64,000 bases of DNA. Source: an uncultured Gammaproteobacteria bacterium (lineage in GTDB: Bacteria; Patescibacteriota; Patescibacteriia; Magasanikbacterales; GWA2-37-8). Shown here one piece after another: positions 3,001 through 12,000 of this stretch; the stretch's first letter is position 1, and every line of letters starts with the position of its first letter. Position numbers: made by a program. Location: assembly GCA_964596525.1 (NCBI GenBank), contig CAZQUL010000001.1, positions 876,890-940,889 on the forward strand, read 5' to 3'.

Positions 3001-6000
3001 ATCCTCTTCGATAAGCAGGCCGGTAATGTAGGTGGCGTATCCAGAAAAGGTGCCTAAGATAAGGAAAAAACCCTTAATATAGAACCAGGTTTGGTTGGAC
3101 TGTAGCCGTTTGAAGCGCAAGAGTTCGAAGATGAAATAGAAGGTTAAAAGCGCGACGGGAAAGTGGGTGAATAAAGGATGGACATTCATAAAAGAATAAT
3201 AAAAAATTATTTTTTCTTTTTGGCGAGCGCACCTCGACCGTGTTCGTAGTCCTTGATAAACGCATCGACCGACGTGTAGGCGACCGCTTCACCGATTACG
3301 TTAAGCGGCAGATCGTCGATGGCTTTAAAACGTACGCAGGATTTTCCCATGTCCAGTTTCTTGCCTTTCGCGCGCCATGCTTCTTCAAACTTTTTTTGCA
3401 ACGTTTTATTGCCGTAGACGTTCATGAGATAGAGCGCGAAGTAGTTTTTCTGTGCAGCGAGTGCGATATAAGGAAGCGGAGTGTCTTTTTTATCCAGGTA
3501 CCCTTGCGGATACCGGGCGAGCGGTACAACGTAGGAAATCATGCCGTACTGCATGGTTTCTTCGTAGCCCTTGGGTAGGTGTTTGAGAATGGTGCTGCGG
3601 ACACTTTCAAGAACGGTACGCCGTTCCCCGGGTAGTTCTTTAAGATACGCGGCGACGGTGGCGGCCTGGGATTGCATACGGATTTACTTGAGGTGCGTAA
3701 GGATGTCGGCGAGCGTGGGACTGCCGCTCCATTTACTCAATAGGCGGCCGGTTTCATCTACATGGACAAGAGTATGCTGATAGGTTACACCGTAGCGCTG
3801 CTTGAGCTCGCGCGCTGTGTCATAGTTGACGATGAGAATGTGCGTGTTCGGAGGAATAGAGGAAAGATGTTTTTTGATATCTGCATCGAGCGTGCGGCAC
3901 GTAGGGCACCAGTCGGCTTTAAAGAAGAGAATCACGCTTCCGTTCGTAGCACGCGCGAGTTTGTCGGCGCTGAATGCTTCGTAGGTACCGGCTGAAGCAG
4001 TGGTTGGGGTGGTAGAGGTGATGGTTGAGGAGGGTGGAGTATTAAGCGTTTTTGGCAGTGTGGTAGACGGCACGGACTCTTCCTTCGTATCCGTCTGTTC
4101 GGCAGTGATAGAGTAAGGTTGTTGATTGCATCCGGCACCGAGGCCGATGAGTGTGTAGGCGATGGTGAAAACGATGAAGTTTTTCTTCATATACATGTTA
4201 AATGTTGCTTGCGTAAAGTATAGCTACATTCTACCTGAAGAATAAAAAAAGACAACGCGCGTTGTTGTCATGAAAAAGACTTTTTTACCTACTTTTCTAG
4301 ATATTTTTTTGCATATGTTTTCAAAATTTCATCGCATACTGGGTGTCGGTTTTGGCATCATTGTAATTTTGGGGACAGGGCTGTGTCTGCGCTCTCGTCC
4401 GGTTAGATATGTAAACCGGTATATCCTGCCAGATTTTAGTTTTACCGAACCAGCGGATAAGCTTCCGGATGAAAAAAGATTGCCCTGGCAGAAAGCGATT
4501 ATCAAAGCCGGTACGTTTACCGCCCAAGATGATCGGTTTATTATCCGTAATCTGGTGGGTAACGATCTTCTCGTCGATTGCGAAAAAGTCGGTCAGCCGC
4601 ACATTCCACTCTATTCGGCGTCGATCATCGAATATTTCCGCTTTTCACCTGGATATGGTTATGGGTTCGTGCCGGTTGCGGGAGGAGGTGCTGAGCGTTA
4701 TGCCGTAGTGTGCGATCGGCATTACTTAATCGTTGATGCAGCAGGCACTAAAGGATTTGAATTGTATGGTCCCTTTGAGCGAAAATGATCTCTGTGAAGC
4801 GATCATTTGATCATTTCTTCTTTTTCTTTTCTTTGGATCGTTTGCTGGCCGCACAGGATGATTCGAGGAGTTTGGTGAGCATCTCCTCGTTGCTAAAGAT
4901 TGTCTCTGGTACCAACCAGTATGACATAGTAGTCGGTTTGTGGTCGCCTTGGGCGTAGACGAAAGGGTGGCTGCCCGCGAGATGTTCAAACTCCGGCCGA
5001 TTTATATCATCGGCTTTAAAATAGAGCTCATTGTCCGCGATGAGGCCGAAGATGAGCCCGTCACGGTATAGGCCCCAGCCGCCGAACATAGAACGGCTTT
5101 TGATGTCCGGGGCAAAGCTTAGGATGTTGTCGAGGATGTGATCGTGGAAGGAGGTGTCTTGGGGCATATAATTTTAATTAGAGTCTCTTTTTGTCTAAAC
5201 TATCATACCAAGCAACATCGGAATTCCCAACCTCTTCCTTTTACTCTCCCCCAGTAACTTCTTCACCTGCCGCTCTGGCGCCATGCCACGCTCGGCTCGA
5301 TGCTGACTTAGGTTATTCGCCTTCCAGCTGCTGCCGAGAAAGAGCGAGTGTTTGCCGTATTTTTCGGCCACTTTATCGGCGGCGGCGTAGACTTTGGTGA
5401 ATTTTTCTGCTTTGACGAGCGAATTGAACAGATCGAGCTGGCGCGACGGAGTCTGTAATTTAAACAGTGTCACGCCCGTGCCCCGGTAAGGAACACCGGC
5501 TTTGAACAGGTGCTCAAAAACACCTTTGGCAATAGGGATGATTTCGGTCGGAATATTGGTGGCGCGCGAAAGTTTGGCTTCGATCGCCGTGTGGCGAAAT
5601 TCTTGGGTGCGCAGCACAAACGAAACTTCGGTCGCGGCCAGGTTGTAGCGCCGCGCTTTGATGCAGGCGTTTTCGATGTTTTTAGAAAGCTGCGAAAAAA
5701 TGAAATCTTTGTCCGTCGACGGGGGAGTGAAGGTCTTGAATTTCTGGATTGAGGCGTAACTGGTTTTAGGTTCAGTCGTGAGTTCCATGATCGCGCGGCC
5801 GTTGAGTTCATGCCAGATGTCGAGAAAATTGCGGCTCAGATTTCCTGTAATCCACCATTCGGGCGTGGAGGCAAAGTCGAGAGCAGTACGTTTGCCGTGC
5901 TTGGTGAGGAATGCGGCGGTTTGGGGACCAATACCCCACACATCGCCGATAGGCAACTCTTTTAAAAACAGATGGATATCGCGGCCAGCGATGACCGTGA

Positions 6001-9000: not shown

Positions 9001-12000
9001 CAGGCTATTATCTGCCCCAGCTGTTTGATCCGGACGCGGAGCTCCAAAAGGCACGTACGATCGACCAGCTGCCGGGCATTGGTTCTTTGGATGGAGATGT
9101 GGCTAAGCTTCTGGCACGCCGCCTACCTGATGATCAGCTCTCGGCAGAAAAGATGCTCAAGATTCTGGAAGAGTGTGCCGAGGAAGTCTCGGTTGCCGAT
9201 CTGCCGAAAGCCAGGCGTCTGTCGCTTGATGACGACCTCAGGCCGCGCTTTGACGACATCTGTTCGATTCATGACGAAACCGGACAGATGCAGTTTGTCG
9301 ATCGTATCGGCAATCCGGTTTTGGTGTATGAGCGGCTGCCGTACGTGATCGCGGTGAGTTTGGATGAAACCAGGCCCCGGGTGTGGCAGACTGGCCATCT
9401 GACGTTTGATCTCCTGATGAGCATTCTTGAGGGTACGTGGCGCTACGGCCGGACACGCCGTGCTGAGGCCCGCGCTGCGCTGTGTGACCGGTACGACTGG
9501 CTCATCGGCGAGGTGCGCCTTGCCGCCAGGAATCGCCTTTCCGCTGCGGTGGCTATTAAGGATAACGGTCAAGAACTGATTTCGGCTGATCGTGTGGTGG
9601 TGTACAGCGGTACGCCGCAGGCACCGCGCGCGACCGCGTATGAAGCGGCGACGTTTCAGCCGGCCACGATCGTGATTCCGGTGGCAAAGAGCTGGGGGTA
9701 CAAAGAAGTGAAAGGCACGCTTGAGCAGGTGTTGACGCCCGAGGGCGTCGCGGCAGATATCGTCAACCTGCTCGCTCGTAAGCGCGTACGCCTCTTGATT
9801 CGTTCTCAGACCGGGCCCGTACTTTTTTGCCACGAGAGCGTCGTAGACGCAAAGCGTCTCGAAGGTGGAGTAAGCATCCTTTAGACAGTATCCGTTCCGC
9901 GCGGCTTTTTATAGCCCATAGCGGAACGGATATTTTTTTAATGTTACGTTAAATCCACTGTCTTGAGAGCAGTGGATTTAGGTGTAATACCGCACATGAA
10001 AGACTATGATTTTTTTCTGGTATTTTTTCCGGCTTTCTTTTTGGGCTTGGGTACTTTGCCGCCAGCGCGACGTGCTTCGGAAAGGCCGATGGCGATCGCT
10101 TGTTTGCGACTCTTCACTTTTGTGCTGCTCCGTCCACTTTTAAGACGGCCGCGTTTAAATTCGTGCATGGCTTTTTCTACCTTCTCTTGAGATTTTTTTC
10201 CGTATCGCGGCATAAGGTATCACCTCCTTTGTAAAAAGCATATAGATACTATACGTAAGCTTATGTTCTACGTCTTGAGGGTGGTGCATAACGTTTTGCG
10301 CACAGGTTCTCTTGCGGGCAGCGTGATCGCTTTCTATAGTACCTACAAAGGTCGTGGAGTAGAGCTGTATCTTAACCTTTCGTATATGGGTATCATTCTA
10401 TGGATTGTCTTTGGCGCACTGGTGGGTTGGGTAGCCTCGCTCATCATGCGTACCGATGCTACGCAAGGAACGATCCTTAATATCATAATCGGTATTATCG
10501 GCGCCGTCATCGGCGGTTGGGTAATGAGCGCCATCGGCAAGTACGGTGTTACCGGCTTCAATCTCTACAGTTTTTTGGTGGCGCTTTTGGGGGCTATCAT
10601 CCTCATCGCTGTCGTCAAGCTTATTGGCGGCTTGTAAAGCACCTCTTTCGCAACAACACTCCTCATACGAGGAGTGTTGTTTTTTATCCACTGATGATTT
10701 CGCCGCCGTTGGGGTGGAGGACTTGCCCGGTCATGAAACTGTTTTCGGACAAAGCGAGAAACAAAAAACTCGGAGCGATTTCTATGGGTTCGCCGGCGCG
10801 TTTCATGGGCGACTGAGAACCGAAGTCTTTGATCTTTTCTTTCTTAAAACTGGCAGGAATGAGCGGGGTCCATACCGGTCCGGGCGCGACGGCATTGACG
10901 CGGATTTCTTTGTCGAGGAGCATGTGGGCAAGCGAGCGCGTGAAGGCGACGATGGCGCCTTTGGTGGCTGCGTAGTCGAGAAGATGTCCGCTCCCGCGAT
11001 AAGCCGTAACGGAGGTGGTATTGATGATGCGGGCGCCTGGTTTGAGATGGGCGAGTGCGGCTTTAACCAAAAAAAATTGCGAGAAAATATTGGTGCGGAA
11101 CGTTTTTTCGAGCTGGCGTTCGGTAATGCCCTCGATAGTTTCCTGCGGATGCTGTTCGGCGGCATTATTGACTACGATATCGATCTGGCCGAAACGCTTC
11201 ATGGTTTCGCGGACGATCTTTTTGGCAAAAGTTTCGCTGCCGACGTCGCCTGCGATGAGTAAAGCTTCACCGCCGTAGAGCTCGATGAGGTGTTTGGTGG
11301 TTTTAGCGTCTTCGTGTTCGTCGAGATAAACGACGACGATGCGGGCGCCCTCTTTGGCGTAGAGCAGAGCGGCCGCCTGGCCGATGCCCGAATCGCCGCC
11401 GGTGACGATGGCTACCTCACCGTAGAGTTTGTTGGTTCCGCGGTAATCAGGATCATCCACGATGGGGCGCGGTTTCATCCGGGTTTGGTGCCCGGGCTGA
11501 GAAATTTTCGGCTGCTGGCGTTTGCTGCGCTTAGGTGGCGGAAAAAAGTGTTTGGCCATATGCGCGCGGTTAGGGAGCAATGCGTTCATTGAGACAGTAT
11601 TCTTTTTCTTCGTGCATAGCGGCGCCGATTTCTTCGAGTTCTTCGTCCTTCAGTACGGAGGTTACTTTTTTGAACATATCTCCCTCTTCTTCTTGCACGT
11701 GATGCTCGATATTTTCTTTCAATACTTTGAGTTTCGCTTTCCATTCTTCGGTATCATGTGGTTGATTCGTCAGTTCCACGAGGAGATGTTTGGCTACGCC
11801 GTGTTCTTCATAGGCTTCGAGCGTTATTTCACGCGTGGGCTTGGCATTTTTTATGTAGGGATAAAAAATAGCTTCTTCGATGTGGGTGTGCACTTCGAGC
11901 TCGCGGTTGAGGCGCTTAAACAGCGTGTCGCATTGTTTGCGACTTTTAGTTGCTTCCAGTTCTTTGAAAATCTTTCCTACTTCGCGATGATCTTTCTTGA

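What the first reader, a model, noticed from the sequence alone, without database searches (positions are those of the whole stretch)
5195..9884. SOS island: dinB, an autoregulated lexA, and two uncharacterised genes
The lexA promoter carries a perfect Cheo-type box GTGAACGTTTGTTCAC exactly in the 17-nt spacer between TTGACA and TATACT; this is textbook autoregulation seen directly in sequence. Four genes sit around it: dinB (co-oriented with a META lipoprotein), a 170-aa unknown (7295-7807) behind a near-consensus promoter and perfect SD, lexA, and a divergent GC-rich 326-aa unknown (8904-9884). The box is 33 nt upstream of the best -35 candidate for the 326-aa gene, so SOS control of that gene is inference only. 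Neither unknown resembles RecA, SulA/YneA, ImuA/B or UmuD. Either could be a new SOS-induced function such as a division inhibitor or repair factor.
Basis: partly seen in the sequence, partly recalled or inferred. Interest (0 to 1): 0.6.

Follow-up and report, generated by a model that had tools for sequence, protein, structure and literature searches.

The report
Split lexA–dinB SOS operon with orphans
This is the ordinary, conserved DNA-damage (SOS) switch of a Patescibacteria-type bacterium: a self-repressed lexA gene that normally sits directly in front of dinB, here pulled apart by inserted genes and flanked by two rare proteins of unknown function with no good evidence of being damage-induced.

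Summary
A perfect GTGAACGTTTGTTCAC palindrome (8785-8800) fills the 17-nt spacer of an 11/12 lexA promoter. The same promoter-operator design recurs upstream of lexA in 56 of 80 related loci, mostly Patescibacteria.

The four genes are not a purpose-built island. In 64 of 80 relatives dinB follows lexA directly on the same strand, as one operon. Here a 1.67-kb stretch splits that operon. It carries a META lipoprotein gene and the opposite-strand 170-aa gene.

Both unknowns are real genes. Each belongs to a small, undescribed family seen mainly in Patescibacteria-type contigs. They match nothing in Pfam, NCBIfam, PHROGs, PADLOC or the PDB.

The 170-aa gene has its own consensus promoter, a structured leader, and no LexA site. 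Its relatives are not linked to lexA or dinB.

The 326-aa gene has a separate promoter. A weak LexA-like site (GACCAATCGTTC, 10.6 bits, second best in 64 kb) overlaps its putative -10/+1. None of 8 homologues has such a site. Two homologues lie just upstream of UvrD-type helicase genes.

Verdict: a known kind of SOS module. SOS control of the 326-aa gene stays an open, modest lead.

The parts
4811..5167 (-). TfoX_N-domain gene, 27 nt downstream of dinB on the same strand. It is probably the last gene of a META-dinB-tfoX_N transcription unit.
   Evidence: PF04993, 8.5e-25; ORF list
5195..6493 (-). dinB (Y-family DNA polymerase IV), the ancestral downstream partner of lexA
   Evidence: IMS, IMS_C and IMS_HHH; NCBIfam Pol IV models at 1e-66, below the equivalog cut-offs; 40-63% identical to dinB genes directly downstream of lexA in 64 of 80 loci
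6534..7004 (-). META-domain lipoprotein gene (signal peptide with an LLGGC lipobox). It is inserted between lexA and dinB, on the same strand as dinB.
   Evidence: PF03724, 2.3e-10; absent from the 80 related lexA loci
7133..7161 (+). Near-consensus sigma-70 promoter of the 170-aa gene (TTGACA-17-TATAGT, TG-extended). It has no LexA site.
   Evidence: PWM best score -0.8 bits across 6494-7300
7166..7294 (+). Structured, GC-rich 5' leader of the 170-aa gene, about 127 nt
   Evidence: MFE -52.5 kcal/mol, z = -3.35, 0 of 200 shuffles fold as well; no Rfam match; no similar DNA in the fetched loci
7295..7807 (+). u170, a two-domain soluble protein. The N-terminal ~95 aa belong to 'family B' (motifs GPSKWDLMLALFD ... 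REDGSGESW ... GYYST.R.G). Residues 100-170 form a C-terminal domain that also occurs alone.
   Evidence: Exhaustive HMMER search: 18 small proteins match residues 3-96, and P0008 (80 aa, 49% identity) matches 100-171; alignment A2; in-frame codon signal; no Pfam, NCBIfam, PHROG, PADLOC or PDB match
7884..7913 (+). Intrinsic terminator of u170. It works on the + strand only; on the - strand no U-tract follows the hairpin.
   Evidence: + strand -16.9 kcal/mol followed by U5; - strand -12.4 kcal/mol followed by GGUGGG
8168..8737 (-). lexA (189 aa): N-terminal winged-helix region plus an S24 autopeptidase domain with the Ala-Gly site, catalytic Ser and Lys
   Evidence: 50-67% identical to LexA in 80 loci, mostly Patescibacteria
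8779..8807 (-). lexA promoter, TTGACA-17-TATACT
   Evidence: 11/12 match
8785..8800 (.). Primary LexA operator, GTGAACGTTTGTTCAC, inside the promoter spacer
   Evidence: Unique zero-mismatch match in 64 kb; 27.4 bits on a PWM built from 56 relatives' boxes; the same design occurs in relatives
8832..8861 (+). Putative promoter of u326: TTGACA, 18 nt, TGg-TACGTT (extended -10). Inferred by eye; it falls below the scan tool's threshold.
   Evidence: Sequence; not listed
8858..8877 (.). Weak LexA-like site, CGTTGACCAATCGTTCTGTG (core GAcC-N4-GTTC), overlapping the putative -10/+1 of u326 and 75 bp centre-to-centre from the main operator
   Evidence: 10.6 bits, second-best PWM hit in the whole window; 0.69 sites of 10 bits or more expected per 64 kb in shuffles
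8904..9884 (+). u326, a soluble 326-aa protein of 'family A' (motifs DRLP, GTWRYG..RR.AR, AVAV..DGSE, C-terminal GG..LL)
   Evidence: Homologues P0003-P0007 and P0024, E from 1e-41 to 4e-4, plus P0032-P0039; alignment A1; coding signal; no family or PDB match
9886..9941 (+). Strong intrinsic terminator of u326
   Evidence: -29.9 kcal/mol, z = -6.8, followed by U7; inverted repeat I2

Best explanation
The locus is the standard SOS core of a Patescibacteria-type bacterium. LexA is a winged-helix plus S24 autopeptidase repressor. It binds the palindrome GTGAAC-N4-GTTCAC, which fills the spacer between the -35 and -10 of its own promoter, so it blocks RNA polymerase and represses its own gene. DNA damage (RecA-stimulated self-cleavage at Ala-Gly) lifts that block.

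In the ancestral arrangement, kept in most relatives, the same promoter also transcribes dinB immediately downstream. In this genome a 1.67-kb stretch has split that lexA-dinB operon. The stretch holds a META lipoprotein gene (same strand as dinB) and the 170-aa gene (opposite strand, with its own consensus promoter, structured leader and terminator).

dinB now lies in a META-dinB-tfoX_N unit with no LexA site of its own. It can be damage-induced only if lexA transcription reads through.

The 170-aa and 326-aa genes are real, lineage-restricted accessory genes from two undescribed small protein families. They are independent transcription units placed next to lexA by local rearrangement, not conserved SOS genes. 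The 170-aa gene is not LexA-controlled. The 326-aa gene is at most weakly controlled, through a degenerate second site.

Shown by data: sequences, motifs, synteny and the existence of the families. Inferred: LexA binding, cleavage, operon structure and the actual regulation.
For: Operator and promoter:
- establish the box and the promoter.
- The design is conserved: 56 of 80 relatives have GAAC-N4-GTTC within 200 nt upstream of lexA, flanked by TTGAC(A) and TATAAT-like hexamers.

LexA identity:
- S24 domain and full-length TIGR00498 match.
- Ala-Gly, Ser and Lys motifs align with E. coli LexA.

Operon:
- dinB is directly downstream on the same strand in 64 of 80 loci, mostly with 7-100 nt gaps. 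This includes the closest relative, L002 (67% identity, 60-nt gap).
- The window's gap is 1674 nt (6494-8167) and holds META and u170. Both are absent from the relatives at the tblastn level; a profile search found one remote family-B relative among them, in L024.
- No LexA-like site lies in 6494-7300.

The unknowns are real genes but not SOS-linked:
- Homologue families exist and the codon statistics are coding-like.
- 51 family-B loci (339 kb) contain no lexA or dinB. Only 1 of 34 upstream regions has a strong box, and that box belongs to a divergent gene's promoter.
- 0 of 8 family-A homologues has a LexA-like site.
- The genes divergent from lexA in relatives are unrelated to one another.
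- Each unknown has its own terminator.
Against: - A 10.6-bit LexA-like site, the second best in 64 kb, sits exactly on the putative -10/+1 of u326. By chance only about 0.69 such sites are expected per 64 kb, so about 0.002 in the 166-nt intergenic region. This estimate is post hoc.
- Family-A homologues lie just upstream of UvrD-family helicase genes in two distant genomes. This fits a DNA-repair role and hence possible SOS membership.
- Family-B genes lie next to SOS elements three times: the window, L024 after dinB, and L103 beside a LexA-box promoter.
- lexA has no intrinsic terminator, so dinB may still be SOS-inducible by read-through.
- No expression or binding data exist.
- Structure predictions failed (pLDDT 46.7 and 33.8), so the functions of the unknowns remain open.
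Confidence: 0.7

Rival explanations
1. u326 is a true, lineage-specific SOS gene. LexA bound to the weak second site (8862-8873), perhaps helped by the strong operator 75 bp away, represses its promoter. The protein would be a DNA-repair accessory factor that works with a UvrD/PcrA-type helicase.
For: - It has the second-best PWM hit in 64 kb, and that hit overlaps the putative -10/+1.
- It is divergent from lexA, an arrangement used by SOS genes in Bacillus (lexA/yneA; my own knowledge).
- Family-A genes lie directly upstream of UvrD-family helicase genes in L082 and, with one gene between, in L139. The two helicases are only 28% identical. L082 is also rich in repair genes (fpg, nth, xseAB).
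Against: - The core has a mismatch in the invariant GAAC half-site.
- None of 8 homologues has a LexA-like site upstream.
- L085 and L138 show no repair context.
- The family has no invariant acidic, His or Lys catalytic residues.
- The u326 promoter is inferred by eye only.
- The p-value is post hoc.
Confidence: 0.25
2. dinB is still SOS-controlled. With no terminator after lexA, the LexA-repressed promoter makes a long transcript that runs antisense through u170 into META-dinB-tfoX_N. Convergent transcription would then couple u170 expression inversely to the SOS state.
For: - No intrinsic terminator follows lexA (-6.2 kcal/mol, z = 0.72).
- The 7884-7913 hairpin lacks a U-tract on the minus strand.
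- No minus-strand terminator was found between 8168 and 7004.
- No good promoter (9/12 or better) and no Shine-Dalgarno sequence were found upstream of META.
Against: - Read-through would have to cover 1.2 kb against a near-consensus convergent promoter.
- Rho-dependent termination cannot be assessed.
- A weak TATAAA element upstream of META could serve as its own promoter.
Confidence: 0.3
3. One or both unknown ORFs are not genes but chance open frames in GC-richer DNA.
For: The first word-indexed searches returned only self-hits, and there are no family matches.
Against: - Exhaustive HMMER finds conserved homologues for both, with shared motifs over the full length.
- Codon log-likelihood is positive in frame and negative out of frame.
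- Each has a strong Shine-Dalgarno sequence, a promoter and a terminator.
Confidence: 0.02
4. The S24 protein is a prophage or mobile-element CI-like repressor, or a UmuD paired with a UmuC-like polymerase, rather than the host LexA.
For: NCBIfam UmuD subfamily and PHROG UmuD-like or repressor models also match the S24 domain.
Against: - The full-length match is to TIGR00498 lexA and includes the N-terminal DNA-binding region.
- The protein has 189 aa with an N-terminal domain that UmuD lacks.
- A palindromic operator sits in its own promoter.
- The arrangement is conserved across 80 chromosomal loci.
- No phage genes or matches were found, and no flanking repeats or tRNA.
Confidence: 0.03

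Closest known systems
Patescibacteria SOS network (Sanchez-Osuna, Barbe & Erill, Environ Microbiol 2017; cited as ref. 52 in PMC7739468; the paper itself is not held)
   Same: - The LexA is of the same clade (50-67% identity to LexA of Patescibacteria MAGs).
- It uses a Gram-positive-type GAAC-N4-GTTC motif in its own promoter.
- dinB is its closest regulon partner.
   Different: In this genome the lexA-dinB unit is interrupted by META and u170, and dinB has no operator of its own. I could not read the paper, so what it reports in detail rests on my recollection only.
Bacillus subtilis LexA (DinR) / Cheo box CGAACRNRYGTTYC and the divergent lexA-yneA arrangement (my own knowledge)
   Same: - The core half-sites GAAC/GTTC with a 4-nt spacer are the same.
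- The operator overlaps the lexA promoter.
- A gene is transcribed divergently from lexA.
   Different: - The flanks here extend the palindrome to GTGAAC-N4-GTTCAC.
- The divergent gene encodes a 326-aa soluble protein with no LysM domain or membrane segment, and it is not conserved at this position in relatives.
E. coli lexA-dinF operon (my own knowledge)
   Same: lexA is co-transcribed with a downstream damage-inducible gene from one LexA-repressed promoter. This matches the ancestral lexA-dinB unit seen in 64 of 80 relatives.
   Different: - The downstream gene is a Y-family polymerase, not a MATE transporter.
- The operator type differs.
- In this window the operon is split.
DNA polymerase IV (DinB), Y-family
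   Same: IMS, IMS_HHH and IMS_C domains are present across the full length, and the best NCBIfam hits are Pol IV models.
   Different: Scores are far below the equivalog cut-offs (223 against 399 bits), so it is a divergent, phylum-specific DinB.

Membership tests
LexA repressor (TIGR00498) | C-terminal S24 autopeptidase domain with the Ala-Gly cleavage site and the Ser/Lys dyad | tested here: met
   PF00717, 3e-26.
LexA repressor (TIGR00498) | N-terminal winged-helix DNA-binding domain, with a full-length match above the curated cut-off | tested here: inconclusive
   TIGR00498 matches residues 5-187 to model positions 12-202 at 104.6 bits, just under the 110.95 cut-off. Pfam LexA_DNA_bind was not reported. 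The 80 homologues share the N-terminus.
LexA repressor (TIGR00498) | Palindromic operator in its own promoter (autoregulation) | tested here: met
   The 16-bp palindrome lies in the promoter spacer and is conserved in 56 of 80 relatives. Binding itself was not tested.
LexA repressor (TIGR00498) | RecA*-stimulated self-cleavage and induction by DNA damage | not testable with these tools
   No recA in the 64-kb window. This needs an experiment.
Cheo-box / Gram-positive-type LexA motif | GAAC-N4-GTTC inverted repeat | tested here: met
   GAACGTTTGTTC at 8787-8798.
DinB / DNA polymerase IV | Y-family catalytic core (IMS), HhH motif and little-finger (IMS_C) domain | tested here: met
   NCBIfam Pol IV models score 1e-66 but fall below the equivalog cut-offs.
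SOS regulon member (u326, 8904-9884) | LexA operator overlapping its promoter | tested here: inconclusive
   The main box lies 31 nt upstream of the putative -35. A weak one-mismatch site (10.6 bits) lies at the -10/+1.
SOS regulon member (u326, 8904-9884) | The operator is conserved upstream of orthologues | tested here: not met
   0 of 8 homologue loci have a site above 2.5 bits within 300 nt upstream.
SOS regulon member (u170, 7295-7807) | LexA operator at its promoter, or conserved linkage to SOS genes | tested here: not met
   The best PWM score across 6494-7300 is -0.8 bits. 51 family-B loci contain no lexA or dinB. Only 1 of 34 upstream regions has a strong box, and it belongs to a divergent gene.
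SOS cell-division inhibitors (SulA; YneA/ChiZ/DivS/SidA type) | SulA fold, or a small membrane-anchored protein (often with LysM) | tested here: not met
   No Pfam match at E of 0.1 or below for either protein. The maximum 19-residue Kyte-Doolittle hydropathy is 1.19 and 1.08, so neither has a membrane segment.
UmuD / ImuA / ImuB / RecA | Sequence match to the family models | tested here: not met
   No matches for u170 or u326 in Pfam, NCBIfam, PHROGs or PADLOC.
META domain (PF03724) | Match above the gathering score | tested here: met
   40.9 bits against a cut-off of 24.

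The most novel reading that the evidence does not exclude
u326 founds a Patescibacteria-specific family of DNA-repair accessory proteins that act with UvrD/PcrA-type helicases. In this genome it has been recruited into the SOS regulon through a low-affinity second LexA operator at its transcription start. In parallel, terminator-less lexA read-through makes an SOS-induced antisense RNA against the strongly expressed u170 gene and carries induction on to dinB.
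Probability: 0.12. Interest if true: 0.6.

Novelty: new member of a known kind. Interest (0 to 1): 0.3.

Why it matters
The SOS switch itself is textbook and adds little new.

The useful points are:
- There is a clean, conserved promoter-operator design for lexA in the candidate phyla radiation: TTGACA, then GTGAAC-N4-GTTCAC, then TATAAT.
- This genome is a natural case where the lexA-dinB operon has been broken. That may have uncoupled a mutagenic polymerase from damage control.
- Two small undescribed protein families are now defined. One of them recurs next to UvrD-type helicases and carries a weak LexA-like site here. In organisms with tiny genomes and many missing repair genes, that is a cheap and testable lead for a new repair factor.

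Tried and rejected
- Word-indexed protein searches with each unknown returned only self-hits. An exhaustive HMMER run on the concatenated pair was accepted and found both families.
- Pfam, NCBIfam, PHROGs and PADLOC on the proteins and on family members found nothing. PDB profile searches gave only spurious hits to designed proteins.
- Phage and viral searches found nothing. The metagenome scan with A4 found nothing.
- Rfam found nothing at gathering score and nothing meaningful at E up to 10. nhmmer with the u170 leader found nothing.
- No flanking repeats or tRNA mark a mobile element.
- A 10-mer, CCAATCGTTC, is shared between the window and L086 upstream regions. I rejected it as a motif: six such pairwise 10-mers occur among nine upstream regions, and none is shared by three.
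- I rejected a ToxIN-like type III toxin-antitoxin idea for u170 plus its leader. By eye I saw no tandem repeats in the leader sequence, and no ToxN/Abi match was found.
- The other four GAAC-N4-GTTC sites are intragenic.

Full report
**Observation.**
- dinB lies at 5195-6493 (-), with IMS, IMS_HHH and IMS_C domains.
- A META-domain lipoprotein gene lies at 6534-7004 (-).
- A 170-aa ORF (u170) lies at 7295-7807 (+). It follows an AAGGAGGG Shine-Dalgarno sequence and an 11/12, TG-extended promoter at 7133-7161.
- lexA lies at 8168-8737 (-). It has an S24 peptidase domain (3e-26) and a full-length match to TIGR00498 at 104.6 bits, just under the 110.95 cut-off. The Ala-Gly site, the GDSM serine and the TMKYL lysine align with E. 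coli LexA.
- A 326-aa ORF (u326) lies at 8904-9884 (+).
- The lexA promoter is TTGACA-17-TATACT (8807-8779, 11/12). The palindrome GTGAACGTTTGTTCAC (8785-8800) fills 16 of the 17 spacer bases.
- That 16-mer pattern has a single zero-mismatch match in the window. Four other GAAC-N4-GTTC matches are all inside coding sequences.

**Source organism.** The LexA protein is 50-67% identical to LexA of 80 species-representative genomes. Most are Patescibacteria (Parcubacteria/Paceibacterota, Kerfeld-, Buchanan-, Uhr-, Taylor-, Falkowbacteria and others), with some Nitrospirota and Verrucomicrobiota/Kiritimatiellia. The identical u326 protein is recorded from an NCBI contig of 1.34 Mb. This fits a small candidate-phyla-radiation genome.

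**The operator is a conserved design.**
- In 56 of 80 related loci an exact GAAC-N4-GTTC lies within 200 nt upstream of lexA. Most often it is the extended palindrome GTGAAC-N4-GTTCAC.
- The contexts show the same architecture almost everywhere: TTGAC(A), zero to two bases, the palindrome, zero to two bases, then a TATAAT-like hexamer.
- The window's promoter is therefore a typical member of a known kind. A comparative study of the Patescibacteria SOS network exists (Sanchez-Osuna et al. 2017, cited in PMC7739468), but I could not read it.

**The lexA-dinB link is an operon, and here it is broken.**
- In 64 of 80 relatives dinB follows lexA on the same strand, usually after 7-100 nt. This includes the closest relative, L002, with a 60-nt gap.
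- In the window both genes are on the minus strand but 1674 nt apart.
- The intervening DNA holds META (same strand as dinB), u170 on the opposite strand with its own promoter, leader and terminator, and 360 nt of AT-rich spacer.
- Neither META nor u170 occurs in the 80 related loci at the tblastn level.
- In a minority of relatives the same spacer has picked up other genes: a DnaQ-like exonuclease, RarA, a MazF-like gene, a YgjP-like gene and a group II intron. It appears to be a recurrent insertion point.
- A PWM built from the 56 boxes scores the lexA operator at 27.4 bits and finds nothing above -0.8 bits across 6494-7300. META-dinB-tfoX_N therefore has no operator of its own.
- lexA lacks an intrinsic terminator. 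The hairpin at 7884-7913 terminates only the plus strand. Read-through from the LexA-controlled promoter into dinB remains possible, but it would have to run against a near-consensus convergent promoter.

**The two unknowns are real genes of undescribed families.**
- Word-indexed searches found only self-hits.
- An exhaustive HMMER search of 1.84 billion representatives found homologues.
- u326 belongs to family A, proteins of about 310-390 aa. Members are P0003-P0007 and P0024, plus P0032-P0039 by profile, one of them from a Candidatus Uhrbacteria genome. Shared motifs run along the whole length: DRLP, GTWRYG..RR.AR, AVAV..DGSE and a C-terminal GG..LL.
- u170 has two parts. The first ~95 residues match family B, about 95-aa proteins with the motifs GPSKWDLMLALFD, REDGSGESW and GYYST.R.G. 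In other genomes this domain is fused to various C-terminal extensions or duplicated.
- Residues 100-170 of u170 match a stand-alone 80-aa protein at 49% identity.
- Codon statistics support the annotated frames, and GC3 (0.64-0.65) is host-like.
- Neither family matches Pfam, NCBIfam, PHROGs, PADLOC or any solved structure.
- Both proteins lack membrane segments.
- Single-sequence AlphaFold models were unusable.

**Are the unknowns SOS genes?**

*u170: no.*
- It has a consensus promoter without a LexA site.
- 51 loci with family-B genes (339 kb) contain no lexA or dinB.
- Only one of 34 upstream regions carries a strong box. That box sits in the spacer of a divergent gene's promoter in L103.
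- One family-B gene lies just after dinB in L024. Taken together these adjacencies are curious but not a pattern.

*u326: mostly negative, with two caveats.*
- The main operator is 31 nt upstream of the best -35 (TTGACA, 8832). That is about -83 to -68 from the likely start site, too far for simple occlusion.
- Genes divergent from lexA in 23 relatives belong to unrelated families.
- None of 8 family-A homologues has a LexA-like site upstream.
- Caveat one: the second-best PWM hit in the whole window, CGTTGACCAATCGTTCTGTG (8858-8877, 10.6 bits), overlaps the putative extended -10 (TGgTACGTT) and the start site of u326. Shuffles give 0.69 such sites per 64 kb, so about 0.002 expected in the 166-nt intergenic region. 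This estimate is post hoc.
- Caveat two: family-A genes lie immediately upstream of a UvrD-family helicase in L082, amid fpg, nth and xseAB. In L139 one gene separates the family-A gene from a UvrD/PD-(D/E)xK helicase-nuclease. The two helicases are only 28% identical. L085 and L138 show no such context.

**Conclusion.** The locus is a normal Patescibacteria SOS core: an autoregulated lexA that ancestrally drives dinB. A lineage-specific insertion has split the operon. Two rare accessory genes sit beside it as independent transcription units.

I give about 0.7 to this reading as a whole. I give about 0.25 to u326 being truly LexA-controlled, and about 0.3 to dinB still being induced by read-through.

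The finding is a new member of a known kind. Its interest lies in the weak second operator and the helicase neighbourhoods of family A, both of which are easy to test.

Noticed in passing
window 7166-7294 (+): The 127-nt GC-rich leader between the consensus promoter and the Shine-Dalgarno sequence of u170 folds into about five hairpins (-52.5 kcal/mol, z = -3.35). It has no Rfam match and no similar DNA in 140 fetched loci. It could be a cis-regulatory leader.
   Followed up: partly
window 7808-8167 and 7884-7913: lexA has no intrinsic terminator, and the only hairpin terminates the opposite (u170) strand. lexA read-through would therefore be antisense to u170.
   Followed up: partly
L039/L041/L069 6855-7456, L056 1239-1853, L024 3555-4712, L064 6546-6938, L038 6790-7338, L055 6558-7670: In relatives the short lexA-dinB spacer has repeatedly acquired extra genes on the same strand: a DnaQ-like DEDDh exonuclease (four loci), RarA/MgsA, a MazF-like gene, a YgjP-like hydrolase and a group II intron RT. 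These are probably additional SOS-operon cargo. The identities were judged by eye from the sequences; only clustering was computed.
   Followed up: partly
L024 3251-3451 and L038 6589-6789: A conserved 66-aa ORF (MSK..L...I..MNK.ID.KIL.GLPY..EA..HK.LL.RLSI) lies immediately after lexA in two distant loci.
   Followed up: no
L103 600-700 and 636-1 (-): A second example of the -35 / GTGAAC-N4-GTTCAC / -10 design (TTGCAT-A-GTGAACTATAGTTCAC-TATTAT). It drives a gene for an HTH protein with a LAGLIDADG-like LGEGS motif, and it is divergent from a family-B gene. This is a candidate new LexA-regulated gene in Patescibacteria.
   Followed up: partly
L082 6904-10092; L139 771-5740: Family-A (u326-like) genes sit just upstream of UvrD-family helicase genes, on the same strand, in two distant genomes.
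   Followed up: partly
window 40800-41426 (-) and 55122-55868 (-): Two ORFs have GC 0.33 and GC3 0.26 against a window mean of 0.50. They are likely recently acquired foreign genes.
   Followed up: no
L001 (Logan SRR11567520 contig), end corresponds to window ~8163: An independent assembly of the same sequence breaks about 5 nt from the lexA stop codon, at the junction between the inserted stretch and lexA. This could reflect strain heterogeneity at the insertion.
   Followed up: no
window 967-5167 and 10004-12094: The surroundings are rich in stress-type genes: AhpC/thioredoxin fusions, DUF2231, DUF1801, thioredoxin, TfoX_N directly after dinB, DUF6496 and a Transgly_assoc (YmgE/GlsB-like) protein. 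The 10684-12094 ORFs were listed but not annotated.
   Followed up: no
window 7927-7934: A GAACGTTC palindrome (the two half-sites with no spacer) lies downstream of lexA. It does not fit the N4 operator and scored low on the PWM.
   Followed up: partly
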